Shown piece by piece: positions 28,710 through 41,404 of a stretch of DNA of 64,000 bases. Numbering within the stretch: the first letter of the stretch is position 1; every line of letters starts with the position of its first letter. A model generated the notes under the pieces. The model was given only the letters and a program-made list of their open reading frames with translations, ran no database searches and was not told where the DNA came from. Position numbers and translations under genes: made by a program. The stretch is from Dehalococcoidales bacterium (GTDB taxonomy: Bacteria > Chloroflexota > Dehalococcoidia > Dehalococcoidales > Fen-1064): assembly GCA_036396095.1 (NCBI GenBank), contig DASWLM010000013.1, forward strand, positions 6,817-70,816, given 5' to 3'.

Positions 28710-29513
28710 ATGAATATGATTGTCTGCGCAAAACAAGTGCCTGACCCGGAAGCACCGCCAGCCAGTTTCAAGATTGACCCGGCTACCAATAAAGCGGTGC
28801 CCCCGCCAGGCGTACCACCCGTCGTTAGCCCGTTTGATGAGCAAGCGGTAGAAGCTGCTCTCAGAATCAAAGACGCCACCAGGGGTGATAAGATTTCCGT
28901 CATCAGTCTGGGCGTCAACCTGTTGAGAGATGTCGTCAAGAAGCCGCTCTCTATGGGTGCTGACGAACTGATTCTCTTGGAAGACCCGGCGTTTGCGGAA
29001 GGTGATAGCTGGTCAACTGCCTACGCTCTGGCAATGGCTATCAAGAAAATCGGCCCATTCGATATTGTCTTCTGTGGACGGCAGGCGGCGGATACGGATG
29101 CCGGTCAGGTCGGCTCTGCGATTGCTGAAATCCTGGGAATTCCCAGCGTTACCATTGCCAAAAAGGTAGAAGTCACCGATGGTAAGGCAAAGGTAGAAAG
29201 AGTCACCGCCGATGGTTATGAGGTGGTCGAAGTATCCCTGCCGGCTCTTATTACTATAAGCAACGAGCTTGGGGAACCACGCTACGCTACCATCAAGGGT
29301 ATTATGGCGGCGAAGCGTAAGGAACCGATTATCTGGAAACCGGCAGATATCAGTGTGGATGCTGGTCAGATTGGCGCCGCCGGGAGCTGCAGTAAAATGC
29401 TCAGGCTCTTCCAACCTGTAAAGGAAGGTAAATGTGAGATCATAACCGGTGACAATGAGGAAGAAGCCGCCGGCAACCTCGCGAAAAAGCTCATGGAGGC
29501 GAAGCTGTTCTAG
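28710..29513 (+). CDS. etfB: electron transfer flavoprotein beta subunit
   Basis: MNMIVCAKQVPD N-terminus and full-length EtfB pattern. SD AGGAGG at 28692-28697. Confidence 0.9.
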   Translation: MNMIVCAKQVPDPEAPPASFKIDPATNKAVPPPGVPPVVSPFDEQAVEAALRIKDATRGDKISVISLGVNLLRDVVKKPLSMGADELILLEDPAFAEGDSWSTAYALAMAIKKIGPFDIVFCGRQAADTDAGQVGSAIAEILGIPSVTIAKKVEVTDGKAKVERVTADGYEVVEVSLPALITISNELGEPRYATIKGIMAAKRKEPIIWKPADISVDAGQIGAAGSCSKMLRLFQPVKEGKCEIITGDNEEEAAGNLAKKLMEAKLF

Positions 29514-29550: not shown

Positions 29551-30549
29551 ATGGCTGATAATAAAGGTGTGTTGGTTATTGCAGAGTTCGTAAATGGTGC
29601 TTTAGCACCCATTGCGAAAGAAATGCTCGGGGCCGCTCGCAAGCTGGTAGGCGGTCTGGGTGAAGAGGTAAGCGCTGTGCTCATCGGTAGTGGGATTGCA
29701 GGCGTTGCGGCGGAAGCAATCAGCTTCGGTGCTGATAAAGTCTACGTTGTCGATGACCCGTTGTTGAAAGATTACCGCACGGATTCTTATGTGGCTGTGG
29801 CTGAAAAGGTGGTCAAGCAGGTTAATCCGCGTATTGTCCTTGCCGGGCAAACCACCATCGGGCGCGATTTAGCACCGCGGCTTGCCTTTAGATTGAATAC
29901 CACAGTCACTCTGGATTGCATTGACCTGGAGATTGACGCAAGCACGAAACTACTATTGAAGACCAAACCTGTCTATGGCGGTAATGCCCGTGCTATCTTC
30001 AGCAGTGAACGGCTACCACAGATGGCGACAGTGCGTGCCAAGACAATGACAGCTCTGGCTCCAGATAGCGGGCGTAAGGGAGAAACGATTACTGTTGCTG
30101 CTGGTCTTGATGCCGCTGGTATTAGGACAAACGTACTCCAGAAAGTTGTTGCTGAAGTTGTCGGTATCAAGCTAGAAGACGCTCCGGTGATTGTTACCGG
30201 TGGCAGAGGCATAGGCGGACCTGAAGGTTTCAAACAGCTTGAAGAACTTGCCAAGATACTCAAGGGTGCCGTTGGTGCCACGCGACCGCCGTGTGATAGT
30301 GGTTGGGTACCTGAAACCATGCAGATTGGTCTAACTGGTAAGATTGTCTCCCCGGATACTTATATTGCGGTAGCATTATCCGGTTCCAGCCAGCATATGG
30401 CAGGATGTTCCGGTTCTAAGAACATCATCGCCATTAACCGTGATGCGGAAGCGAACATCTTTAAGGAAGCCCGCTTTGGTGTTGTTGGCGACTGGAAGAA
30501 AATAGTCCCTGCATTCCAGACAAAGATTAAGGAATTGCTGGGCAGATAA
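29551..30549 (+). CDS. etfA: electron transfer flavoprotein alpha subunit
   Basis: The C-terminal FAD-binding region (GGRGIGG ... VGATRPPCDSGW ... QIGLTGK ... YIAVALSGSSQHMAG) is typical of EtfA. Confidence 0.9.
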   Translation: MADNKGVLVIAEFVNGALAPIAKEMLGAARKLVGGLGEEVSAVLIGSGIAGVAAEAISFGADKVYVVDDPLLKDYRTDSYVAVAEKVVKQVNPRIVLAGQTTIGRDLAPRLAFRLNTTVTLDCIDLEIDASTKLLLKTKPVYGGNARAIFSSERLPQMATVRAKTMTALAPDSGRKGETITVAAGLDAAGIRTNVLQKVVAEVVGIKLEDAPVIVTGGRGIGGPEGFKQLEELAKILKGAVGATRPPCDSGWVPETMQIGLTGKIVSPDTYIAVALSGSSQHMAGCSGSKNIIAINRDAEANIFKEARFGVVGDWKKIVPAFQTKIKELLGR

Positions 30550-30778: not shown

Positions 30779-32239
30779 CTAGAATCCCATCATTTGCGCT
30801 GCCCATTCGGCAAGCTTCATTACATAGTTAGGGATAACGCCGAGCAGTAAAACACCGAAGCAGGCGAGAAAAAGAGCCAGTCGTAGCGCGCCGGAAGAGG
30901 ATACACTTCCCTCAAACTTAGGCTCATCTAACCACATTACCTTTACTACTCTGAGATAGTAGTAGGCTGATATGACACTGTTCAACACGGCAATAATAAC
31001 CAACCATAACAGATTTTGCTGTACCGCGGCGCTAAAAATGTAGAACTTGCCCATAAAACCGGCGGTCAGTGGAATTCCGGTTAGAGAAATAAGACACAGG
31101 GTTAAGGCTAAAGCCAGTAACGGCGACCTCTTCCCGACTCCGGCATAATCTTCAATCAGGTCGCTACCTACCTTGTTTGAGATAGCAATAATAGCAATAA
31201 ACGCCCCCATATTTGTCACAGCATAGCCCGCCAGGAAAAAGATAACACTGCTTTGTCCTAAAAAGTCATGGCTTTTAGAAAGACCCATTGTGGCAATACC
31301 CAGCATGAGGTAACCTGCCTGGGCTATGCTAGAATAACCCAGCATGCGCTTGATATTGACTTGAGGGATAGCCACGATATTACCTACCGTCATACCTATT
31401 GCTGCAAGAACGGCAAATATAATTCCCCAGTCCTGACTTAACCATGTAGGAAGGTCAAATGCGGTGTAGAATATACGGAGAATAATGGCAAAGCCGGCAG
31501 CTTTACTTGCTACGGAAAGGTAGGCAGTGATGGGTGTCGGCGCTCCTTCATATACGTCAGGGACCCACATCTGGAATGGGAAAGCGGCAATCTTGAAACC
31601 AAACCCCACTATTAACAGTATTAAACCCAGCAGGAGCCCAAAGCTGGCAGAACCTCCAGCAAGAGAGAGAGTCCCGATAGCTTGAGCGATATCTCCCAGT
31701 TGTGTCTTTCCTGTGAACCCGAAGACAAATGCCATACCATAGAGCAATATCGCTGAAGCGATTGCTCCAAGCAACATATATTTCAGGGAAGCTTCCGTAG
31801 ATTTGGAGTCTTTAAGAAAACCAACCAGGGCATAAAGAGAGATACTGATTAATTCCAGTGCTACAAAAATTGTGATTAGCTCCGTTGCCGCTGTAAGTAA
31901 CGTCATACCAAGTGTGGATAAAAGCACCAGTGCATAGTACTCGCCTTGAAAACGAGTGAACTTAGATACATAATCGGTTGAAGCTAAAATCACCAGCGCA
32001 GAAATAACCAGGAACAAGAACTTAAAGAACAAGGCAAATTTATCCACCGTCAGCATGTCGTTAAATGTGGTTTGAGGATTGCCACACCATAAACCTACAG
32101 CGCAGCCGAAGGATATTGCCAGTCCTGCCAGACTAATTACCGCCAGTAAGCTTTTTCGCTGGAGAAACAGGTCAAGTAAAATCACCACAATTGCGCTGAC
32201 AAGCAGGACTATTTCTGGCGTTATTAACACAAGGTCCAA
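30779..32239 (-). CDS. nuoN: NADH-quinone oxidoreductase subunit N
   Basis: A 486-aa polytopic antiporter-like subunit, last gene of the nuo operon. Confidence 0.9.
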   Translation of the reverse strand: MDLVLITPEIVLLVSAIVVILLDLFLQRKSLLAVISLAGLAISFGCAVGLWCGNPQTTFNDMLTVDKFALFFKFLFLVISALVILASTDYVSKFTRFQGEYYALVLLSTLGMTLLTAATELITIFVALELISISLYALVGFLKDSKSTEASLKYMLLGAIASAILLYGMAFVFGFTGKTQLGDIAQAIGTLSLAGGSASFGLLLGLILLIVGFGFKIAAFPFQMWVPDVYEGAPTPITAYLSVASKAAGFAIILRIFYTAFDLPTWLSQDWGIIFAVLAAIGMTVGNIVAIPQVNIKRMLGYSSIAQAGYLMLGIATMGLSKSHDFLGQSSVIFFLAGYAVTNMGAFIAIIAISNKVGSDLIEDYAGVGKRSPLLALALTLCLISLTGIPLTAGFMGKFYIFSAAVQQNLLWLVIIAVLNSVISAYYYLRVVKVMWLDEPKFEGSVSSSGALRLALFLACFGVLLLGVIPNYVMKLAEWAAQMMGF

Positions 32240-32279
32240 AAGTTCACTCCTTATGCCGTTTTACCCAAACTCTACTTTA

Positions 32280-33785
32280 CTACCCACCGAGCAAATTTAT
32301 TATGGGTGTGATTCCTGTTTTAATCACATTGGTCAGTATTGACGGATAAACACCAACCAAGAAAATCATGATGATGAAAATAGCCGAATATACTCTTTCC
32401 AATTTATCAGCATCATGGACACCATTAAACTTATCCTGCGGTGCATTGTAAAAAACCCGCTGTAAAAGCCATAAAATGTATCCTGCCCCCAGTAAAATGC
32501 CGAGTATAGATATTACTGTGAATACCTTAGCAATTGGGAAGGCGCCAACCAGAATATCACTTTGAAAACTACCTAAAAAGGTCATAAATTCGGCAATAAA
32601 ACCACTCGTAGAAGGCACTCCCATTGCCCCCAGGCCGGCAATTGTAAAGATTACGGTAATAATTGGAATCTGCCTGGCTAAACCACCCATTTTATTGATA
32701 TCACGCTCGTGGGTATTATGCATAACTATGCCGGCGGTAGCAAAGAGAAGTCCTGTGATAAGACCGTGACTGAACATCTGTAATGTGGCGCCGGTCAAAC
32801 TGACGGTAGTCAAACTAAAAATACCCAGTAATACAAAGCCCATATGACTGACACTACTGTACGCAATTAGCCTCTTAATATCGGTTTGTTTCAATGTAAC
32901 TGCCGCGCCGTATATTATATTGACCATCGCCAAACTTATTAAAATCGGGGCAAATTGTCTGGCTGCATCGGGAAATATGGAGACACAAACACGTATCATT
33001 CCGTAGCCACCCATTTTTAGCAGGGTCCCTGCCAGCACTACACTCACCGCTGTCGGCGCATCGGTATGGGCATCAGGTAACCACGTGTGGAATGGGAAGA
33101 CGGGTAATTTGACAGCAAAACCACCAAGCAATAAAAAGAACATTAGGGCTTGCGGAACAACCGGGATATAGGAAGCAATCCCTCGTGCGGTTATATCGAC
33201 CATACTGAGACTATGGGTAGTAAAATAAACACTCAGGATGCCTGCCAACATCATAGCGCTACCAAACAAGGTGTAAAGAACATACTTGAAGGCTGAATAT
33301 TCTTTCCTGCCGGCTCCCCAGATAGAGATTAAGAAGAACATGGGAATAACTTCGATTTCCCACATGATGAAGAAGAGCAGGAAGTCCAGCGAAGCGAATA
33401 CACCGAGAATACTCATTTCCAGTAGTAGGAGCCATGCAAAATATTCCCTCGGGCGGAGGTCAATTTTCCAGGAGATTAAAACGACGAGGAAACCAAGCAA
33501 CGTCATTAAGAAAAAGAGCGGGAGACTCACACCGTCTAGACCTACATGGTAATAAGCATTAATTAAAGGAATCCAGGATGCCTTTTCTTCGAACTGTATT
33601 ACACCAGCCATTGTTGGTGACCTATCGAAACTAAAGAATACACAGATAGCTAAAATTAGAGGGATCAAAGTAAATATTGCTGCGATATATTTAATCAGCT
33701 TTGCTCGTGAATTAGATGTACAAGCTATTAAAATTGCTCCCAGAGCAGGGAGGAAAATTATCAATGATAGAATATTAAAATTCAA
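32280..33785 (-). CDS. nuoM: NADH-quinone oxidoreductase subunit M
   Basis: A 501-aa antiporter-like subunit (FPFHTWLPDAH motif). Confidence 0.9.
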   Translation of the reverse strand: MNFNILSLIIFLPALGAILIACTSNSRAKLIKYIAAIFTLIPLILAICVFFSFDRSPTMAGVIQFEEKASWIPLINAYYHVGLDGVSLPLFFLMTLLGFLVVLISWKIDLRPREYFAWLLLLEMSILGVFASLDFLLFFIMWEIEVIPMFFLISIWGAGRKEYSAFKYVLYTLFGSAMMLAGILSVYFTTHSLSMVDITARGIASYIPVVPQALMFFLLLGGFAVKLPVFPFHTWLPDAHTDAPTAVSVVLAGTLLKMGGYGMIRVCVSIFPDAARQFAPILISLAMVNIIYGAAVTLKQTDIKRLIAYSSVSHMGFVLLGIFSLTTVSLTGATLQMFSHGLITGLLFATAGIVMHNTHERDINKMGGLARQIPIITVIFTIAGLGAMGVPSTSGFIAEFMTFLGSFQSDILVGAFPIAKVFTVISILGILLGAGYILWLLQRVFYNAPQDKFNGVHDADKLERVYSAIFIIMIFLVGVYPSILTNVIKTGITPIINLLGG

Positions 33786-33813
33786 TCTTCTACCCCCTAC
33801 GAGTATTTACCTG

Positions 33814-35787
33814 TTAACCAAATAAAAACAAACAGACAATTAGTGCGACAATGCCCAACCCGATGATTAAGCCATAGAGCTGTAACTGTCCAGTTTGTAC
33901 CTTCCTCATCGTTTTACCAGCGATCAATGTAGTGTCAGCTACACCGTTTACTGCACCATCTACACCCTTTTGATCGAATGATTTAAACCACCCGAATAAG
34001 TTACGTACAATAAACCCCTGTACGAAATTAGTATTGATACCTCCATCGATGACTTTGCTATCGAAGAGTTGAAATACTCGGAAGATACCGCCCATCAAAA
34101 CTTTCTTTACAATGATTCCTTCATACAACTCGTCAACCCAGTATTTGTTATAAAACAACTTATACAATGCTGAGAATCTTTTCCCGATTGCTTCTGCTGA
34201 TAACCACTTTTTACTATAGACTGCATATGCCGTAAAGATTCCCAGCCCTGCCAGTATCAGAGATAGCCACGGTAATGGATGAGCGAAGATGCCAAAAAGC
34301 CCTTCAACAACACTGTACGTTTCACCATGACCGAAAAATGCACTGAACCCACCGGTGACATTAAGCAGGCCGGAACCGCATGCCAGAATAGCCAGGATTA
34401 TTAGAGGTATTGTCATCACTGAGGATGATTCATGAAGGTGTTCCTTGCCTCTATATTCCCCACCAAAGGTCAGGAAGATAACGCGGAACATGTAAAAAGC
34501 GGTCATAAATACGGTTATCATCGCTAGGGCAAATAGGACAGGTTGATTTTCCAGAGATTTGACTAGTATCTCATCCTTGCTCCAGAATCCTGATAGAGGC
34601 CAGATACCAGCGAGGCTCAATGCTCCGATCACAAAGGTAGCATATGTTCGTGGCATCACTTTGCGTAAACCACCCATTTCTCTCATGTCAAAGGTCTTGG
34701 TAGCATGGTTGACACTACCGGCGCCAAGGAATAGCAAAGCTTTGAAGAAGGCATGATTAAACAAATGAAAGATGCCGACAGCGACACCACCAGTCGCCAG
34801 ACCGAGCATCATATAACCAAGTTGGCTGATAGTAGAATAAGCCAGAACCCGCTTTATATCGTTCTGTACCAAACCTATCGAGGCGGCGAAAATAGCCGTA
34901 AACCCGCCGACAGTAGCTACTGTCTGCAAAGCAACTGCCGAGTGCTCAAAGAGGGGATAAGTGCGGGCGACCAGAAAGACACCAGCGGCGGCCATCGTAG
35001 CAGCATGGATTAAAGCGCTAACAGGAGTTGGACCTTCCATAGCATCTGGTAACCATACATGTAGTGGGAATTGAGCTGATTTACCCACTGCACCGGCAAA
35101 TATACCAATAGCTCCCCAGGTGAGGACGTTACCTGCCAGCACTCCGCTAATTGCCATTTGATGCAGTTCGGCAGTATCAAAAGTGCCGGTATTAGCGTAC
35201 AAATAGATCATTCCGGCTAAGAACCCGAAATCTCCGATACGGGTAACAATAAAAGCCTTTTTTGCGGCATTGGCGGCAGAGGGTCGGTGGAACCAGAATC
35301 CAATAAGCAGATAAGAACACAACCCTACTAATTCCCAGAATACGAACATTAATAACAAGCTATTCGCCAACACCAAGCCTAGCATGGCAGTGGTAAACAG
35401 AGACATATGAGCGTAATAACGGTGATAACCGGCATCGCCATGCATATAACCCTGTGAGTATATCTGCACCATTAAACTAACCACAGTTACGACAATAAGC
35501 ATCACTGCAGTCAGCGAATCGACTATTATCCCAAGATTGATGGTAGCTCCACCCTCGATAATCACCCATGAAATATTTGGGACCTCTAACTCATGATGTG
35601 GTTCGCCGAGCACTGTTACTAACACCCAGATTGAAAGCAGTAAAGAGGTAGCTACAGCCGCAATAGTAACATAACCTGCAATCTTCGGTTTATCCTTGAA
35701 GAAAGGTTTGAGTATCAAGGAAATTATTGCCCAAGATAGGAGCGGTATTAGAAAGATTAACCAAATATATTGATTCTGATCGAACAT
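33814..35787 (-). CDS. nuoL: NADH-quinone oxidoreductase subunit L
   Basis: A 657-aa antiporter-like subunit with a C-terminal lateral-helix extension (FPLHVWLPDAMEGPTP). Confidence 0.9.
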   Translation of the reverse strand: MFDQNQYIWLIFLIPLLSWAIISLILKPFFKDKPKIAGYVTIAAVATSLLLSIWVLVTVLGEPHHELEVPNISWVIIEGGATINLGIIVDSLTAVMLIVVTVVSLMVQIYSQGYMHGDAGYHRYYAHMSLFTTAMLGLVLANSLLLMFVFWELVGLCSYLLIGFWFHRPSAANAAKKAFIVTRIGDFGFLAGMIYLYANTGTFDTAELHQMAISGVLAGNVLTWGAIGIFAGAVGKSAQFPLHVWLPDAMEGPTPVSALIHAATMAAAGVFLVARTYPLFEHSAVALQTVATVGGFTAIFAASIGLVQNDIKRVLAYSTISQLGYMMLGLATGGVAVGIFHLFNHAFFKALLFLGAGSVNHATKTFDMREMGGLRKVMPRTYATFVIGALSLAGIWPLSGFWSKDEILVKSLENQPVLFALAMITVFMTAFYMFRVIFLTFGGEYRGKEHLHESSSVMTIPLIILAILACGSGLLNVTGGFSAFFGHGETYSVVEGLFGIFAHPLPWLSLILAGLGIFTAYAVYSKKWLSAEAIGKRFSALYKLFYNKYWVDELYEGIIVKKVLMGGIFRVFQLFDSKVIDGGINTNFVQGFIVRNLFGWFKSFDQKGVDGAVNGVADTTLIAGKTMRKVQTGQLQLYGLIIGLGIVALIVCLFLFG

Positions 35788-35791
35788 TATG

Positions 35792-36103
35792 CTACCACTT
35801 CATCAAATCGATTTTTCCAGCATCAATGGTTTCACGACTACGATAGATGGCAATAATAATTGCCAAACCCACAGCTGTTTCAGCCGCCGCCACTGCAATA
35901 GTAAATATCGCAAAGACCTGCCCGGTCAATTGTAGCGGCACGATGTATCGGGAAAAAGCAACCAGAGCAATGTTTACTGCACTCAGCATGATTTCAATGC
36001 ACATCAAAATAACTATGGCATTATGTTTGGATAAAGCGCCATACAAACCTATAGAGAATAATATGGCTGATAAAATTAGATAATGCTCTAACCCGATTGA
36101 CAT
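35792..36103 (-). CDS. nuoK: NADH-quinone oxidoreductase subunit K
   Basis: 103 aa, three TM helices, with a conserved membrane Glu (AAAETAVGLAI). Confidence 0.9.
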   Translation of the reverse strand: MSIGLEHYLILSAILFSIGLYGALSKHNAIVILMCIEIMLSAVNIALVAFSRYIVPLQLTGQVFAIFTIAVAAAETAVGLAIIIAIYRSRETIDAGKIDLMKW

Positions 36104-36595
36104 TTATTTCTTGTCCTTTACTAAAACAATCGCACTTAAAACAGTGGCGAGTAAAAGAATCGGAATAATCTGCAGAGGTAAAACAAAACCGTCTTCACCG
36201 AAAAGTTTAACCGCCAATTTGGAAGTGGTATTTGCTTCTGGTAATACATTAGATACTTGCCATTGGGTACTGAGTATCGCATAGCATACCCCGCCGAAGA
36301 ACAGCGCCACTACGAATAAAGCCGGAATACGGAATTTATTTGATGGACTTCCTAGCGGAACCTCTCTGGTTAACATGATTGCCAGAATGATTAATATTCC
36401 TATGGCGCCAACGTAAATCAGAACCTGAATTGCCGCCAGAAAATCTGCATTCAGCAAAATATATACTCCTGCTATGCCTATGAAGCTCAGAATGAGCAAC
36501 ATGGCGGCTCGAAATACATTACGTAGCAGAACCACGCCTAAAGCGGCAACTACGATGATTACAGCAAAAATCCAAAAGGCTATTACCTGTCCCAT
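36104..36595 (-). CDS. nuoJ: NADH-quinone oxidoreductase subunit J
   Basis: A 163-aa membrane protein. Assigned by position and pattern. Confidence 0.85.
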   Translation of the reverse strand: MGQVIAFWIFAVIIVVAALGVVLLRNVFRAAMLLILSFIGIAGVYILLNADFLAAIQVLIYVGAIGILIILAIMLTREVPLGSPSNKFRIPALFVVALFFGGVCYAILSTQWQVSNVLPEANTTSKLAVKLFGEDGFVLPLQIIPILLLATVLSAIVLVKDKK

Positions 36596-36598
36596 TTA

Positions 36599-37078
36599 TC
36601 ACCTGTCAATTAGTAAAGTCTGCATGGGTAACTTGGATTCATTTTCAGGACTAAAATAACCGCTGGGTATTCGTTTCTCCGAAGGCATTAAATCTTCCCC
36701 GGTTAAAATAAAGTTCTTTCGGCTATATGCAGATTTTTCATAATCACAACTCATAAATAAACATTTTACGGGGCAAGACTCCACACATAGTCCACAAGAG
36801 ATACAGATGCCGATATCCTGTTCTATCTTATCCACTTTTAATTTCTTGTTCTCATCCCTGGAGGTTACGACAATGAGACAACCCGCTGGACAAGCGCGAC
36901 TACAAGCGCTACAGGCATTACAAACATTTTTATCCCAGACAAGCTGATTCCCGCGAATCCGACGAGAAACATACAATCTCTCTTCCGGATATTGAGTGGT
37001 AATAGGTCTACGGAAAAAGTGTTTTAAGGTTAACGCCATCCCTTTGGCAATACCTTTCCCGTACCGTTCAAACTTCAA
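36599..37078 (-). CDS. nuoI: NADH-quinone oxidoreductase subunit I (2x[4Fe-4S])
   Basis: CNACSACSRACP and CISCGLCVESCP motifs. Confidence 0.9.
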   Translation of the reverse strand: MKFERYGKGIAKGMALTLKHFFRRPITTQYPEERLYVSRRIRGNQLVWDKNVCNACSACSRACPAGCLIVVTSRDENKKLKVDKIEQDIGICISCGLCVESCPVKCLFMSCDYEKSAYSRKNFILTGEDLMPSEKRIPSGYFSPENESKLPMQTLLIDR

Positions 37079-38198
37079 CTTTTTTATCTCCCGTCAGCCT
37101 GTAAAATTTAGACCAGAACAATATTAGCACTGCAGTCACTACGAAATTAATGGCGACTATCACCCACTGTGAGAGATCGGGTAAGGTAATTACCTGAAGT
37201 CCGGTAATGAGTAAGTTAATCAATGCCAAAGGCAGAAGGAACTTCCAGGCAAAACCCATCACCTGGTCAATCCGTATACGTGGCAAGGTAGAACGTACCC
37301 AGATTATTAATATAAAGACAGCAACCATTTTAATTAAAAACCAGAGTATCGGAGGCAGTAATGGGCCTCTCCAACCACCGAGGTAAATGGTGGCTATAAT
37401 CGCTGAAATTGCCAGCGCCTCTGCGTATTCTGTCAGGAAAAACAGGGCAAACTTGATACCGGAGTACTCAATATTAAAACCGGCAACAATCTCAGACTCA
37501 GCCTCCAGGAGGTCGAACGGAGTACGGTTAATCTCTGCCAGCGCCGCAATAAAATAAATGATAAAACCCAGCGGCTGTAACAGGATAAAAGGAATGTTTT
37601 GTGATTCCACAATACTATTCATAGATAGATTACCGGTAAGTAACACCACACCGATAATCGATAAAGCAAGCGGAATTTCATAACTCACTACTTGAGCAAT
37701 CACACGCATAGCGCTAATCAAAGCGTATTTATTATTAGAAGCCCAACCCGCCATCAATATACCAACGACACTTACAGAACTGATAGCCACGATATAGAGA
37801 ATACCTATGTTGAGGTCTACCAGCGCCACGCCGTTCTGGAGAGGGATAACTGCAAAAATCATTAGAGTCGGGATAAAGGCGATTGCCGGAGCTAATAGAT
37901 GCAATAATCCATCGGCGTTTTGGGGAATGATATCTTCCTTAATTAATATCTTGATGGTATCAGCTACTGGTTGGATGATACCGAAGGGTCCGGTACGATT
38001 GGGACCGATGCGTATCTGGAAACGTCCCAGTACCCGTCGCTCGATGTATATAAACGCCATAACACCCAGTATCACAAAAACGAAAAGGATGACAATAAAA
38101 ATTAACATATGGCTCCAGAATCCGCCGGGCCAATCTGGAGGCAATGCGGAAGCGTAAAGTATATTTGGGTTTGTATTAGTAATGAATGTTGACAACAC
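37068..38198 (-). CDS. nuoH: NADH-quinone oxidoreductase subunit H
   Basis: Pattern ERRVLGRFQIRIGPNR.GPFG. Likely GTG start at 38198, overlapping the nuoD TAG (TAGTG) and preceded by AGGAGAGG. The ORF track's TTG 38222 is an alternative. Confidence 0.9.
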   Translation of the reverse strand: MLSTFITNTNPNILYASALPPDWPGGFWSHMLIFIVILFVFVILGVMAFIYIERRVLGRFQIRIGPNRTGPFGIIQPVADTIKILIKEDIIPQNADGLLHLLAPAIAFIPTLMIFAVIPLQNGVALVDLNIGILYIVAISSVSVVGILMAGWASNNKYALISAMRVIAQVVSYEIPLALSIIGVVLLTGNLSMNSIVESQNIPFILLQPLGFIIYFIAALAEINRTPFDLLEAESEIVAGFNIEYSGIKFALFFLTEYAEALAISAIIATIYLGGWRGPLLPPILWFLIKMVAVFILIIWVRSTLPRIRIDQVMGFAWKFLLPLALINLLITGLQVITLPDLSQWVIVAINFVVTAVLILFWSKFYRLTGDKKVEV

Positions 38199-39301
38199 TA
38201 ACGGTCTACCTCTCCTAAACAAATATCAATACTACCGAAGATGACGATAGCATCTGCAATTTTTACGCCGGTCATTAATTCACGAAGCACCTGCAAATTG
38301 ATGAACGATGAAGGTCTGACATGGAAACGGTACGGATTAGTCGAACCATCGGACACCAGATAAAAGCCCAGCTCACCTTTCGGGGCTTCGATGTGCCCGT
38401 ATGCCTCGCCTTTCGGAGGACGTAAAACACGCGGTACTTTTGATTGAATCTCACCGGATGGCATTTGTGCCATCGCTTGTTTAATGATGCGAATGCTCTG
38501 ATGCATTTCCTCAATTCTCATGCGGTAACGGTCATATATATCTCCCACGGAGCCGACCGGTACATCAAAATCAAAGCGGTCATAAATGGAATAGGGGTCT
38601 GCTTTTCGGATATCCCAGTTCACCCCACTGGCACGGAGCACTGGTCCAGAGACGGAGCAATTAATAGCGGTCTCCCGTTTTAAGATGCCGATATTCTTTG
38701 TGCGCATGAGCAATATTTCATTTTCGGCAAGAAGTTGGTCATACTCGGCTATAAAACCGGGTAAACTATCAATGTATCTTTTAAGAGCAGGGAGAAACTC
38801 TTCAGGAATATCCTGACTGACACCACCGATGCGCAAATAGTTATAAGTAAGCCTCTGTCCGCAAACCATCTCGAAGAGGTCCAGAATTTTTTCTCTTTCA
38901 CGGAACATATATAGCAGAGGAGTCATAAAAGCTCCGAGTTCATTCAATAAAAACCCAACTGTCATAAGATGACTGGAAATCCGCATCAGCTCCGTCATAA
39001 TGACCCGCAGATATTCAGCCCTTTCCGGAACCTGAATTCCTGCAAGTTTTTCTACTGCCAGAACATAAGCCTGATTATTTGACATAGATGTCAGATAATC
39101 CATTCTATCTGTAAAAACAATATCTTGAGTGTAATTTAATCCTTCCGCCAGTTTCTCGATTCCCCGGTGTAAATAGCCGAAAACTGGTTCGACATCTTGT
39201 ATGACTTCGCCATCGAGAGTGAAGCGCATGCGGAATAACCCATGAGTGCTGGGATGCTGAGGTCCCGCGTTAACGACAAAAGGCTCGGTCTTGAATGTCA
39301 T
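38198..39301 (-). CDS. nuoD: NADH-quinone oxidoreductase subunit D
   Basis: 367 aa. Motifs [14 protein letters not shown], and C-terminal [11 protein letters not shown]. Confidence 0.9.
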
Positions 39302-39744
39302 TGTAACTTGAAATCCTTCCTTAATGGGTGTCCTTGAAATCCCTCCCAGAGCATTATTCTTTTCAGATTAGGATGGCCCTCAAATTTGATACCCATAAGG
39401 TCGTAGACTTCTCTCTCCTGGAAATTGGCGCCGTTCCACAGACTAACCACCGAAGGAACGGTAGGATTTTCACGGTTAGTACAGCGTGTCTTCAGTATTA
39501 GACCGTGATTATGCTCTAACGAGACAAGGTAATAAACAACTTCAAAATAAGTATTGTAATCAACAGCCGTTATGAAGTTAAGGTAGTCAAAATCAAAACC
39601 GGGGGTATTTTTCAGGAATGAAGCAATTTGAAATATGGATTCGGGCTTAACAACAATGGTATTCCCGCTCGAGTCAACGAGACTTCCTGGAAATTGTGTC
39701 TCTAATTTAGCGCTTATTTCTGTAGCTGGGAGTGCTAAGGTCAT
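39298..39744 (-). CDS. nuoC: NADH-quinone oxidoreductase subunit C
   Basis: 148 aa. Pattern [23 protein letters not shown]. Confidence 0.9.
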
Positions 39745-40373
39745 GATTGTTCCTTTTTCTTAGCAATACTTTGGTGTTTTATTTTTTCCTGTAACGCCTG
39801 TATTCCATGTAGCAAAGTTTCAGGACGTGGAGGACATCCCGGAATATAAATGTCTACCGGGATTATCATATTTATACCAGGAACGACGCTGTAGGAGTGG
39901 CGGAAAAGTCCACCACTGATAGCACACGAGCCCATCGCTATCACCCACTTCGGTTCCGCCATTTGTTCGTATATTCTCTTATATGTCGGTGCCATCTTCC
40001 ATGTTAAAGTTCCGCATGCAATCAATAAATCAGCCTGGCGTGGAGACGGGCGGAATATTTCCATACCGAAGCGAGAAATGTCAAAGCGAGAAGCAGCGGT
40101 GGCAATCATCTCGAAAGCACAACATGCTAAACCAGAGTTGATAGGCCAGATTGAAGAACGACGTGACCAATTGATTATTGCATCGACTGTTGTTAACAGA
40201 ATATTACGGCTAATATCCTCTTCTAACCAGCTATCAGGGTCTTTAATAGGCTGTTTATACAGTTTTCTTGCTGCTTCAATGGCTTCACCTTCTGTTCTGT
40301 CCAGCTCAATATCAGGATAGATATATGGTTTTGAGATGTCTTCTATACCCATTCTAGTGCTTTCTTCTTCCAC
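39741..40373 (-). CDS. nuoB: NADH-quinone oxidoreductase subunit B (about 50-aa N-terminal extension if ATG 40373 is used)
   Basis: [18 protein letters not shown] and [14 protein letters not shown] cluster-N2 motifs. Overlaps the nuoA end; the alternative ATG is 40352. Confidence 0.9.
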
Positions 40374-40714
40374 GCATAAATATAACCAATGACAATAACG
40401 AATACAAAGATAAGTACACTAGTCAATGCCGGCATTCCTAAAAGCTTCAATTGAACTGCCCAGGGATAGAGAAATGCTACCATAACATCTAATGTTAAAA
40501 ATATCAGAGCATAAAAATAGTAGCGGAAATTGAACTGAACCCATGTTTTACCTATGGTCTCCATACCGCATTCATAGGTGGAGGTCTTAACGGAATTAGG
40601 TTTGTGGAGAACAACACGAACATATCTGAGCAGAACGGGTAAACCGAGGGCAATAACTGCAAACAGAATACCTGCGATGAGGAAGTAGGCAATGTAACCG
40701 AAATCAGTCAACAA
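40343..40714 (-). CDS. nuoA: NADH-quinone oxidoreductase subunit A
   Basis: 123 aa, three TM helices (STYECGME motif). TTG start after GAAGGAGG. Confidence 0.9.
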
Positions 40715-40787
40715 TTTCCTCCTTCAAGCGGGTATAACGTATTTCATTTAAATCTTCAGGAGATTTTAGGCTGGCAACCATTCGTAA

Positions 40788-40982
40788 TTAACTGGCTTTC
40801 TCCAGTTCATTCTCATAGAACGCCATATTATAACCGGTCTTTTCGGCTTTCATAATGACATAGCCGGGAGGATTTGCCTTGACCTCAATAACAGTTCCGG
40901 TCATGTTAGCGATTTTATAACCGCCGGGCCAAACCGGCCTGTCTGCTACCTTAACTTTGTCACCCACACTAAATTTTGCCAT
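40788..40982 (-). CDS. small (64 aa) beta-rich SH3/KOW-like protein of unknown function, first gene of the nuo transcription unit
   Basis: ATG 40982 lies 6 nt after AAAGGA. Sequence MAKFSVGDKVKVADRPVWPGGYKIANMTGTVIEVKANPPGYVIMKAEKTGYNMAFYENELEKAS. It is on the same strand as nuoA, 73 nt upstream of it. Confidence 0.5.
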   Translation of the reverse strand: MAKFSVGDKVKVADRPVWPGGYKIANMTGTVIEVKANPPGYVIMKAEKTGYNMAFYENELEKAS

Positions 40983-41012
40983 AATCAATCCTTTTACTAT
41001 TACCGCTATTTT

Positions 41013-41150
41013 TCAAAAGGCTTGTGCCTTGTGAGATATTATTCTGTACATTCTAATTGCTTGCATTAAAGCTTCAGGCCACGACAGACAACCCGGCAGG
41101 TAGACATCGACTGGGACAATAATTCTCCAGCAACTATTACCCTCCAGTGC
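41013..41150 (-). pseudogene. relic of a NuoB / [NiFe]-hydrogenase small-subunit-like gene (C-terminal 45 codons only)
   Basis: The minus-strand frame between TGA (41151-41153) and TGA (41013-41015) reads ALEGNSCWRIIVPVDVYLPGCLSWPEALMQAIRMYRIISHKAQAF. Compare the intact NuoB here, [25 protein letters not shown]. There is no start codon, and the CPPRPE motif has degenerated to CLSWPE. Confidence 0.45.
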
Positions 41151-41163
41151 TCAAAACGGTTAC

Positions 41164-41193
41164 AGTATATCACACACTTTTTTGCAAAAGCAA
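41164..41193 (-). promoter_or_regulatory. candidate sigma70-like promoter for the small gene + nuo operon
   Basis: Minus strand: TTGCTT (41193-41188), 18 nt spacer, TATACT (41169-41164). By eye only. Confidence 0.3.
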
Positions 41194-41404
41194 GAGGTTA
41201 CATCCTTAATTTGCGGTACGCATTATTGGCGGATGTGAAGTGTATTTTTATGCTAACTAGCTTGCCTTATGCAATTCGCCTCCTCTTATTTGGGAATTCA
41301 AGGCAGTTGGGTTTCAGCGGATACTTGAATTGTCTCCCTTGTGGCGGTATAGTGGGGAAAGATTTAGCTTCATTGCTACGAGTGAAATGAGTGGTTTTCC
41401 GGTG

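What the first reader, a model, noticed from the sequence alone, without database searches (positions are those of the whole stretch)
40788..40982. Small SH3/KOW-like protein encoded directly upstream of nuoA in an EFG-less complex I operon: possible NdhS-like electron-donor docking subunit
The nuo operon has 11 genes and no NADH-oxidising module, so the electron donor is unknown. Its first cistron is a 64-aa beta-rich protein: MAKFSVGDKVKVADRPVWPGGYKIANMTGTVIEVKANPPGYVIMKAEKTGYNMAFYENELEKAS. It has its own SD and lies 73 nt before nuoA on the same strand. Established knowledge: cyanobacterial and chloroplast NDH-1 is also an 11-core-subunit enzyme lacking NuoEFG. It uses ferredoxin, which docks on the small SH3-like subunit NdhS (CRR31). 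The G-D-K-V-K-V ... F..-E-L-E layout here is reminiscent of NdhS as I remember it, but this is recall, not an alignment. If it holds, this would be an unrecognised donor-docking subunit for a non-photosynthetic complex I.
Basis: inference. Interest (0 to 1): 0.6.

Follow-up and report, generated by a model that had tools for sequence, protein, structure and literature searches.

The report
Small SH3-like protein tied to complex I
A real, strongly conserved 64-residue beta-barrel protein of uncultured Dehalococcoidia is nearly always encoded inside the operon of a complex I that lacks its NADH-oxidising module, so it is probably an unrecognised extra subunit, but it is not a member of the NdhS family and a role in docking the electron donor is unproven.

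Summary
The ORF is real. It lies on the minus strand at 40982-40788, encodes 64 aa, has a Shine-Dalgarno sequence, and ends 73 nt before nuoA of an 11-gene nuoABCDHIJKLMN operon.

It belongs to an unannotated family of about 63 aa with no Pfam or NCBIfam hit, found only in Dehalococcoidia/Chloroflexota MAGs. AlphaFold gives a confident five-strand SH3/KOW-like barrel. Foldseek's best hits are Spt5/NusG KOW domains, and cyanobacterial NdhS is the best full-length match (TM 0.72-0.77).

Sequence-level membership in NdhS is not met. Profile similarity to PsaE (P 7e-5) is matched by unrelated SH3-like controls (R67 DHFR, NusG KOW), so it is only fold-level.

The strong evidence is genomic. In 33 of 44 species-level loci the gene sits between nuoB and nuoC of EFG-less operons. 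These operons also carry a second small gene between nuoK and nuoL.

The window's layout is derived. The old operon was replaced, and decayed nuoB and nuoC remnants still flank the small gene. The small gene itself stayed intact under purifying selection (dN/dS 0.04-0.18) in five lineages.

Best reading: a supernumerary complex I subunit that may work like NdhS. Donor docking is untested.

The parts
40788..40982 (-). Small ORF, 64 aa including start, TAA stop. Predicted SH3/KOW-like five-strand beta-barrel; candidate supernumerary complex I subunit.
   Evidence: sequence; homologues; pLDDT 84.7; fold; synteny; dN/dS 0.04-0.20.
40989..40993 (-). Shine-Dalgarno AAGGA, 6 nt upstream of the ATG.
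   Evidence: Read directly. A purine-rich block is present in all aligned relatives (columns about 605-620).
41121..41255 (-). Conserved promoter/leader of the nuo operon. It includes an extended -10-like TGATATACT at 41172-41164. This is the region that precedes nuoA in relatives with the ancestral operon.
   Evidence: 93% identical to L001 4891-5026, just upstream of L001 nuoA; 80% mean identity among rearranged lineages, as high as the coding region. Promoter function is inferred; the consensus scan did not call it.
41007..41120 (-). Pseudogene remnant: 3' end of the former nuoB (encodes ..VPVDVYLPGC.., frameshifted).
   Evidence: 85% nt identity to the L001 nuoB 3' end, with indels; tblastn E 6e-10; stops and frameshifts in all five lineages, mean identity 67%.
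40739..40781 (-). Remnant of the first ~43 nt of the former nuoC, between the small ORF and the present nuoA.
   Evidence: aligned to the start of L001 nuoC, 71%; 68% mean identity among lineages.
40343..40714 (-). nuoA (TTG start, GGAGG Shine-Dalgarno) of the replacement operon.
   Evidence: (PF00507, E 6e-31).
39741..40373 (-). nuoB, with an N-terminal extension of roughly 80 residues before the Pfam domain (which starts at residue 84).
   Evidence: (PF01058).
39298..39744 (-). nuoC.
   Evidence: PF00329.
38198..39301 (-). nuoD, directly followed by nuoH (no nuoEFG).
   Evidence: PF00346.
37068..38222 (-). nuoH.
   Evidence: PF00146.
36599..37078 (-). nuoI (2x[4Fe-4S]). This is the most likely partner surface by analogy with NdhI-NdhS and PsaC-PsaE.
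   Evidence: Fer4 dicluster families. The partner role is inference from PMC7021789.
30779..36595 (-). nuoJ (36595-36104), nuoK (36103-35792), nuoL (35787-33814), nuoM (33785-32280), nuoN (32239-30779). There is no extra ORF between nuoK and nuoL here.
   Evidence: ORFs and translations; no small2 homologue in the window.

Best explanation
The 64-aa protein is a lineage-specific supernumerary subunit of the 11-core-subunit (NuoEFG-less) complex I-like enzyme of uncultured Dehalococcoidales.

It folds as an SH3-like beta-barrel. It is made stoichiometrically with the Q-module subunits: ancestrally it is encoded between nuoB and nuoC, often with overlapping or near-abutting reading frames.

It most likely packs onto the exposed top of the truncated peripheral arm (NuoI, NuoB, NuoC, NuoD), where NuoG/E/F would sit in a 14-subunit enzyme. 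There it would act the way NdhS does in photosynthetic NDH-1. That is, it would be a small barrel seated against the 2x[4Fe-4S] subunit that stabilises or shapes the site where the soluble donor (probably a ferredoxin) delivers electrons to cluster N6a.

What is shown: a real conserved gene, the SH3-like fold, operon embedding in EFG-less operons, and purifying selection that survived replacement of the operon.

What is inferred: physical membership of the complex, the binding site on NuoI, and any role in donor binding.
For: Synteny:
- In 33 of 44 species-level loci the gene lies directly upstream of nuoC, and in 32 of them visibly between nuoB and nuoC (L003 starts at the small gene), on the same strand, in operons where nuoD abuts nuoH (gene calls and Pfam).
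- Spacing is tight: 6-28 nt in L001, and an 8-nt overlap with nuoB in L034.
- All 18 such loci that reach the nuoK-nuoL junction also carry a second conserved 64-aa ORF there. The enzyme therefore looks like a 13-gene variant with two add-ons.

Natural experiment:
- In the window's clade the nuo genes were replaced by a different lineage. Window NuoD is 65% identical to L001 NuoD, although the small protein is 84% and the neighbouring CCA-adding enzyme is 82% identical.
- Remnants of the old nuoB 3' end and nuoC 5' start still flank the small gene.
- Five lineages share this layout.
- In those lineages the small gene has dN/dS 0.04-0.18 with near-saturated synonymous sites and, apart from one codon missing at the 3' end of L134, no indels. 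The flanking remnants carry stops and frameshifts and have dropped to 67-68% identity.

Fold:
- AlphaFold2 gives pLDDT 84.7 and five strands.
- Foldseek hits NdhS chains 6khi_S and 6l7o_S with TMq 0.72, TMt 0.73-0.77 and rmsd 2.2-2.5 A. This is the best full-length target.
- About two thirds of positions are at least 90% conserved, as expected for a protein buried in interfaces.

Literature:
- The donor of 11-subunit complex I is unknown, and extra subunits are 'not excluded' (PMC11238625).
- NdhS sits in a groove of NdhI, and the Fd site of NDH-1 mirrors the PsaC/PsaE site of photosystem I (PMC7021789).
Against: - There is no experimental or modelling evidence of binding to any Nuo subunit.
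- NdhS family membership fails.
- The sequence resemblance to PsaE is no better than to unrelated SH3-like proteins.
- 11 of 44 loci are standalone in unrelated neighbourhoods. In L022 and L012 the gene sits beside the CCA-enzyme gene with no nuo genes downstream. Whether those genomes have nuo elsewhere could not be checked.
- The nearest relatives of the window's present nuo operon have no such gene within 3.5 kb. That operon type evidently works without it in cis.
- A sister subfamily of the same domain is fused to, or encoded next to, MaoC/FAS1-type dehydratases. The domain is therefore a general adaptor module and not a dedicated redox-docking one.
- The family is not basic, with mean pI 5.7-6.9.
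Confidence: 0.5

Rival explanations
1. It is an assembly factor or chaperone for the Q-module (NuoB/C/D/I). It would be needed during Fe-S insertion or subunit joining but would be absent from the mature complex.
For: The operon position between nuoB and nuoC fits a factor that acts on the nascent Q-module as well as it fits a subunit. Standalone copies and retention next to a different nuo lineage are compatible with a trans-acting factor.
Against: The extreme sequence conservation over the whole surface and the tight, partly overlapping reading frames are more typical of a stoichiometric subunit. There is no similarity to any known complex I assembly factor.
Confidence: 0.15
2. It is a general SH3-like adaptor protein whose function does not depend on complex I. 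It would bind some other partner, and its place in the nuo operon would be historical hitch-hiking.
For: A quarter of the loci are standalone in diverse contexts. L022 and L012 keep the gene but have no nuo genes at the locus. The gene survived replacement of all neighbouring nuo genes. Relatives of the domain partner with MaoC-like dehydratases.
Against: An identical intra-operon position persists across two deeply diverged subgroups (50-57% identity between them). It co-occurs with a second add-on gene and with EFG-less operons only. The MaoC-associated proteins form a separate subfamily that lacks the C-terminal KTGYNMAF.E.ELEK signature.
Confidence: 0.2
3. It is a KOW-like nucleic-acid- or ribosome-binding protein that regulates or couples expression of the long nuo operon, in the manner of an operon-specific NusG/Spt5-type factor.
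For: The top Foldseek hits are Spt5/NusG KOW domains (E 1.3e-3). There are weak Pfam KOW2_Spt5 hits in 9 of 42 members. hhalign against a NusG KOW sequence recalled from memory gives P 6.8e-5 over 28 columns.
Against: There is no NGN domain, which NusG-family regulators need to bind RNA polymerase (established knowledge). The KOW Pfam scores are far below threshold (13 vs 28.9 bits). A mid-operon position is unusual for a regulator. The similarity is no stronger than to non-nucleic-acid SH3-like proteins.
Confidence: 0.07
4. It is not a functional gene in this window, only a not-yet-decayed relic of the old operon.
For: It is flanked by pseudogene remnants of the old nuoB and nuoC.
Against: The ORF is intact in five diverged lineages with dN/dS 0.04-0.18 and synonymous sites near saturation, while the flanks decayed. 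The Shine-Dalgarno sequence and the upstream promoter/leader are conserved.
Confidence: 0.02

Closest known systems
NdhS (CRR31; Ssl0352/Tlr0636; Pfam PF11623) of cyanobacterial and chloroplast NDH-1
   Same: It is a single-domain SH3-like beta-barrel of about 60 residues (TM 0.72-0.77 to 6khi_S and 6l7o_S). It is an add-on to an 11-core-subunit complex I that lacks NuoEFG. It carries an N-terminal 'G-x-x-V-+-V' and a C-terminal 'F..-E-L-E' pattern.
   Different: There is no significant sequence relationship. The organisms are non-photosynthetic anaerobe-type Chloroflexota. The gene is encoded inside the nuo operon, whereas, from my own knowledge (not tested here), ndhS is unlinked to the ndh genes. 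It has a long conserved DRPxWPGGYKIA loop that NdhS lacks. No NdhV or NdhO partners were identified. NdhS itself may not touch ferredoxin (PMC7021789).
PsaE (photosystem I subunit IV, PF02427)
   Same: It has an SH3-like barrel next to a 2x[4Fe-4S] subunit. It is the best sequence-level hit of the family profile in the PDB (E 0.19). hhalign gives probability 63%, P 7e-5 over 53 columns, as strong as NdhS versus PsaE. The near-invariant K45 aligns with the Arg of the PsaE 'VVVRF' strand. From memory, not tested here, that Arg is the ferredoxin-binding Arg39.
   Different: The score is not specific. R67 DHFR and NusG-KOW score the same. There is no Pfam hit. The biological context is unrelated.
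KOW domains of Spt5/NusG
   Same: They are the best Foldseek E-values (1.3e-3, TMq 0.70). Weak Pfam KOW2_Spt5 hits occur.
   Different: There is no NGN domain. The KOW motif is only partly present. The gene context is respiratory, not transcriptional.
Lineage-specific extra subunits of bacterial complex I (Thermus Nqo15/Nqo16; Paracoccus NDUFS4/S6/A12 homologues; Mycobacterium A9; Campylobacterota NuoX/NuoY, which replace NuoE/F in the operon)
   Same: They set a precedent that bacteria add small non-core proteins to complex I, and that operon-embedded unknown genes mark a change of electron donor. (Partly from PMC12361115. Thermus and Campylobacter are from established knowledge.)
   Different: There is no sequence or fold relation to any of these. 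Here the add-on is an SH3-like barrel between nuoB and nuoC, and no biochemistry exists.
SH3-like C-terminal domain or small partner of MaoC/FAS1-type dehydratases (P0085, P0112, P0128; P0089 in L131)
   Same: These are true sequence homologues of the N-terminal two thirds, GDRVRIKDRPDWPG.Y+LA..EG (E down to 5.6e-13).
   Different: The C-terminal third differs. The partner is a hot-dog-fold hydratase, not complex I.

Membership tests
NdhS / CRR31 (PF11623) | Significant match to the NdhS sequence profile | tested here: not met
   No PF11623 hit at E<=10 for the protein or any of 42 relatives. hhalign against a 32-sequence NdhS alignment gives probability 0.7-4.3%, P 0.01-0.08.
NdhS / CRR31 (PF11623) | Single SH3-like five-strand beta-barrel of about 55-65 residues | tested here: met
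   AlphaFold2 pLDDT 84.7 with five strands. Foldseek to 6khi_S and 6l7o_S gives TMq 0.71-0.72, TMt 0.73-0.77, rmsd 2.2-2.5 A.
NdhS / CRR31 (PF11623) | Belongs to a complex I-type enzyme that lacks NuoEFG | tested here: inconclusive
   Genetic linkage is strong: 33 of 44 loci lie inside EFG-less nuo operons. Physical association was not testable.
NdhS / CRR31 (PF11623) | Sits in a groove of NdhI/NuoI and supports ferredoxin oxidation (foothold for NdhV) | not testable with these tools
   Needs multimer modelling or biochemistry. The feature is taken from PMC7021789.
PsaE (PF02427) | Significant and specific sequence-profile match | tested here: not met
   No Pfam hit. The PDB profile search gives PsaE as top hit, but at E 0.19. 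hhalign gives P 7e-5, above all 300 column shuffles, but this is equalled by R67 DHFR and NusG-KOW controls.
KOW / NusG-Spt5 | KOW motif above the Pfam threshold, together with an NGN domain | tested here: not met
   KOW2_Spt5 scores 13.1 bits against a cut-off of 28.9. The protein is a single 64-aa domain with no NGN.
Supernumerary subunit of bacterial complex I (functional class) | Conserved co-encoding with core nuo genes | tested here: met
   It lies between nuoB and nuoC in 33 of 44 species-level loci. It was retained as first cistron after operon replacement, with dN/dS 0.04-0.18.
Supernumerary subunit of bacterial complex I (functional class) | Co-purifies with, or is resolved in, the complex | not testable with these tools
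   All carriers are uncultured MAGs.

The most novel reading that the evidence does not exclude
Uncultured Dehalococcoidales have a previously unrecognised 13-subunit form of the NuoEFG-less complex I. Its two add-ons are the SH3-like protein between NuoB and NuoC and a DUF2007-like protein between NuoK and NuoL. In this reading the SH3-like subunit, seated on NuoI, forms part of the docking site for the physiological donor (ferredoxin or another low-potential carrier). It would be a non-photosynthetic, independently evolved counterpart of NdhS and PsaE, and would identify the long-sought electron input of an 11-subunit complex I.
Probability: 0.25. Interest if true: 0.75.

Novelty: new variant of a known kind. 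Interest (0 to 1): 0.55.

Why it matters
The electron donor of the widespread 11-subunit, NuoEFG-less complex I of anaerobes is an open question. The 2024 literature states that no common donor protein has been found and that extra subunits 'are not excluded' (PMC11238625).

This is an unannotated protein that is embedded in such operons. It has the fold of the small subunits that flank the ferredoxin sites of NDH-1 and photosystem I. It is kept under selection even when the operon around it is swapped. That makes it a concrete, cheap-to-test handle through multimer modelling, pull-downs and complexome profiling.

It also shows that Dehalococcoidia complex I operons contain conserved non-core genes that current annotation calls 'hypothetical'.

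Tried and rejected
1. NdhS membership was rejected. There is no Pfam hit and hhalign probability is below 5%.

2. For a while the PsaE link looked real. PsaE was the top PDB profile hit. hhalign gave P 7e-5, equal to NdhS versus PsaE, and beat 300 column shuffles and reversed controls. I then ran unrelated SH3-like controls. R67 DHFR scored 24.3 over 56 columns and a recalled NusG KOW sequence scored 25.8. The similarity is therefore fold-level only, and I withdraw it as evidence of specific kinship.

3. My first 'NdhS' seed recalled from memory turned out to be PsaE. The real NdhS sequences were then recovered from PDB entries 2jz2 and 6a7k.

4. An R67-DHFR-like NADPH site was considered and rejected. 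The pore residues K32 and Q67 align to V12 and M53 (alignment; residue roles from memory).

5. The leader-peptide and relic-ORF idea was rejected by dN/dS and the decay of the flanks.

6. I looked for natural fusions to Nuo subunits or ferredoxin domains among 1.84 billion representatives. None were found, only MaoC-type fusions and repeat proteins.

8. The metagenome scan with the window's NuoB found no close relative of the present operon (maximum 68% identity over the full-length protein), so its donor lineage is unidentified.

9. L045 and L046 are 100% identical in DNA to the window. They confirm the assembly but give no polymorphism data.

Full report
OBSERVATION.
- The ORF exists as described but lies on the minus strand.
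- An AAGGA Shine-Dalgarno sequence sits 6 nt upstream.
- The ORF ends 73 nt before the TTG start of nuoA (40714), which has its own GGAGG. No terminator-like hairpin lies between them.
- Downstream on the same strand are nuoA-B-C-D-H-I-J-K-L-M-N (40714 to 30779), with nuoD abutting nuoH. Pfam confirms A, B, C, D, H and I.
- No NuoE/F/G-like ORF is apparent in the 64-kb window. The rest of the genome is unseen, and a related Chloroflexi genome has been reported to carry nuoEFG in a separate operon (PMC5736913).

THE PROTEIN FAMILY.
- Neither Pfam, NCBIfam nor PDB sequences give a significant hit.
- A search of 5.8 billion proteins found 73 cluster representatives of 62-88 aa at 61-90% identity. 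Those that carry a name are called 'hypothetical protein' from Dehalococcoidales or Chloroflexota MAGs.
- About two thirds of the positions are at least 90% conserved.
- An exhaustive HMMER profile search of 1.84 billion representatives found only 60 hits at E <= 1e-3 and 16 at E <= 1e-10. The family is therefore narrow.
- The more distant hits are a sister subfamily that shares the N-terminal 'GDRVRIKDRPDWPG.Y+LA..EG' part. They occur as the C-terminal domain of ~460-aa MaoC/FAS1-dehydratase proteins, or as a small gene right after such a gene.

FOLD.
- AlphaFold2 with the family alignment gives a confident model (mean pLDDT 84.7) of five beta strands.
- Foldseek against the PDB returns SH3-like/KOW barrels. 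Spt5 and NusG KOW domains come first (E 1.3e-3, TMq about 0.70).
- Cyanobacterial NdhS (6khi_S, 6l7o_S) ranks 19-20 with TMq 0.71-0.72, TMt 0.73-0.77, rmsd 2.2-2.5 A and 21% identity. It is the best match that covers a whole target chain.
- No hit reaches E <= 1e-3, so this assigns a fold, not a family.

IS IT NdhS OR PsaE?
- I recovered real NdhS sequences (Ssl0352, Tlr0636) from the PDB and built a 32-sequence NdhS alignment.
- Profile-profile comparison with the small family gave probability 0.7-4% and P 0.01-0.08. Membership is not met.
- The family profile's best PDB sequence hit was plant PsaE, at E 0.19.
- Against a 12-sequence PsaE alignment taken from PDB chains, hhalign gave probability 63%, P 7e-5 and score 26.3 over 53 columns. 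That is the same as NdhS versus PsaE (score 26.6). It is above all 300 column-shuffled controls (mean 10, sd 2.4, maximum 22.4) and above reversed controls (about 8).
- Two unrelated SH3-like proteins score equally well. R67 dihydrofolate reductase (sequence verified) scores 24.3 with P 1.7e-4 over 56 columns. A NusG KOW sequence recalled from memory scores 25.8 with P 6.8e-5.
- The 'GD+V+V ... G.V.EV ... P.GY.V ... It is not evidence of kinship with NdhS or PsaE.

GENOMIC CONTEXT, THE DECISIVE EVIDENCE.
- A pattern scan of one genome per species (GTDB) gave 44 loci, all Dehalococcoidia/Chloroflexota MAGs.
- In 33 of them the gene lies on the same strand immediately upstream of nuoC. In 32 of those, nuoB is visible immediately upstream of it (nuoA-nuoB-small-nuoC-nuoD-nuoH-nuoI...). 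nuoD is followed by nuoH, so these are EFG-less operons (independent gene calls and Pfam).
- Spacers are short. In L001 they are 28 nt after nuoB and 6 nt before nuoC. In L034 the gene overlaps nuoB by 8 nt.
- This holds in two subgroups whose small proteins are only 50-57% identical to the window's.
- Every one of the 18 loci that extends at least 150 nt past nuoK carries a second conserved 64-aa ORF between nuoK and nuoL. That ORF has a weak, sub-threshold match to DUF2007.
- One subgroup (L027-L043) additionally has a 575-aa B12-binding radical-SAM gene between nuoC and nuoD.
- The remaining 11 loci have the small gene alone in assorted neighbourhoods, for example after clpP/tig or before groES-groEL.
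- In a sample of 80 metagenomic loci chosen by similarity to the window's NuoB, only one (L056) has the small gene. The closest ones have nuoB abutting nuoC.

THE WINDOW'S ARRANGEMENT IS DERIVED.
- The window's small protein and the neighbouring CCA-adding enzyme are 84% and 82% identical to those of L001. The window's Nuo proteins are only 56-65% identical to L001's, although L001 and L002 share 89-93% (NuoB, NuoD, NuoH). The window's NuoD is nearer to other groups, up to 77%.
- DNA alignment explains this. Window 41255-41121 matches the region upstream of nuoA in L001 at 93%. It is joined directly to a frameshifted remnant of the 3' end of the old nuoB (41120-41007, 85%). Then comes the small gene (85%, no gaps), then the first ~43 nt of the old nuoC (40781-40739, 71%). 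Only then do the present nuoA and its Shine-Dalgarno sequence begin.
- Four further lineages have the same layout: P0005/L133, P0003/L134, P0002/L135-138 and P0006/L139-140. Their NuoA is 81-95% and their NuoB 95-96% identical to the window's. Several of them also keep a piece of the old nuoA 5' end.
- Among these lineages the small gene has pS 0.45-0.70, pN 0.06-0.11 and dN/dS 0.04-0.18. Apart from one codon missing at the 3' end of L134 it has no indels, and it keeps 81% nucleotide identity.
- Over the same lineages the nuoB and nuoC remnants have dropped to 67-68% identity and carry stops and frameshifts.
- The junction was assembled identically from two other samples.
- So the core genes were swapped for another lineage. 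The second add-on gene was lost. The SH3-like gene was kept, under selection, as the first cistron behind the old promoter.

HOW IT MOST LIKELY WORKS.
- Shown: a structured, strongly constrained SH3-like protein whose gene is embedded in, and co-inherited with, EFG-less complex I operons.
- Inferred: it is a supernumerary subunit bound to the Q-module, most plausibly against the 2x[4Fe-4S] subunit NuoI at the apex left bare by the absence of NuoG/E/F.
- The analogy is with NdhS, which 'sits in a groove of NdhI', and with PsaE next to PsaC. The two ferredoxin sites are near-superimposable (PMC7021789).
- The same paper places NdhS about 25 A from bound ferredoxin and interprets it as a foothold for NdhV. 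'Docking subunit' is therefore too strong even for NdhS.
- The family's mean pI of 5.7-6.9 gives no electrostatic argument for binding an acidic ferredoxin.
- My estimates: about 0.65 that the protein physically associates with the Nuo complex as a subunit or assembly factor. About 0.25-0.3 that it contributes to the donor site.

RIVALS.
- An assembly factor for the Q-module.
- A complex-I-independent adaptor. Support comes from the standalone copies, from L022 and L012 where no nuo genes follow it, and from the MaoC-associated sister subfamily.
- A KOW-like expression factor. This is weakened by the lack of an NGN domain.
- A decaying relic. This is refuted by the selection analysis.

NOVELTY.
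- No source names the protein. It has no family model. The papers I could search on Dehalococcoidia or 11-subunit complex I do not mention it.
- It is best classed as a new variant of a known kind. It is a lineage-specific add-on to complex I with the fold of NdhS and PsaE, but it is not a member of their families.
- It matters because the input side of 11-subunit complex I is unresolved (PMC11238625), and this gives a specific, testable candidate.

Noticed in passing
L001 10153-10344; L003 4103-4294; L025 5724-5915; L034 12019-12174 (and 14 more loci); absent from the window: A second conserved 64-aa ORF (MWVEIKKVQTLMLAEMWKEFFEGEGIPTRIMPE...) lies between nuoK and nuoL. It is present in all 18 ancestral-type operons that cover that junction, and it has a weak sub-threshold match to DUF2007 (PF09413, E 1e-3 to 5e-2). 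Together with the SH3-like gene it makes a 13-gene operon. It was lost in the window's replaced operon.
   Followed up: partly
L034 6676-8403 (same position in 12 of the L027-L043 loci; the other 5 are unresolved or cut short): A 575-aa B12-binding radical-SAM enzyme gene is inserted between nuoC and nuoD in one subgroup of Dehalococcoidia nuo operons (Pfam PF02310 + PF04055). It is possibly a modifying enzyme for a Q-module subunit. Its function is unknown.
   Followed up: partly
window 40739-41255 and 30779-40714: The whole nuo operon of this lineage has been replaced by a nuo operon of another lineage. NuoD is 65% identical to that of the nearest relative, against 84% for the small protein. 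Pseudogene stubs of the old nuoB and nuoC remain around the retained small gene. The donor lineage was not identified (best full-length NuoB match in JGI metagenomes is 68%).
   Followed up: yes
window 28710-29513 and 29551-30549 (+): etfB and etfA (electron-transfer flavoprotein, Pfam ETF/ETF_alpha) converge on the 3' end of nuoN. This could be relevant to the electron input or output of the chain. I did not check whether the adjacency is conserved.
   Followed up: no
L131/L132 3728-5210; proteins P0085, P0112, P0128: A sister subfamily of the same SH3-like domain is fused to the C-terminus of ~460-aa MaoC/FAS1-dehydratase proteins, or is encoded as a 69-aa gene immediately after a 419-aa one. 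This is a split/fused pair of unknown function.
   Followed up: partly
L022 5935-6192 and L012 1788-1973: In two other species the small gene sits next to the divergent CCA-adding-enzyme gene, as in the window, but no nuo genes follow it. Either the operon was deleted or moved while the small gene was kept, or this layout is older. I could not check whether these genomes have nuo elsewhere.
   Followed up: no
window 39741-40373 (-): NuoB carries an N-terminal extension (the Pfam domain starts at residue 84). Only the closest Chloroflexota-type relatives match the first ~50 residues (full-length matches in L051-L074, truncated matches in more distant loci).
   Followed up: no
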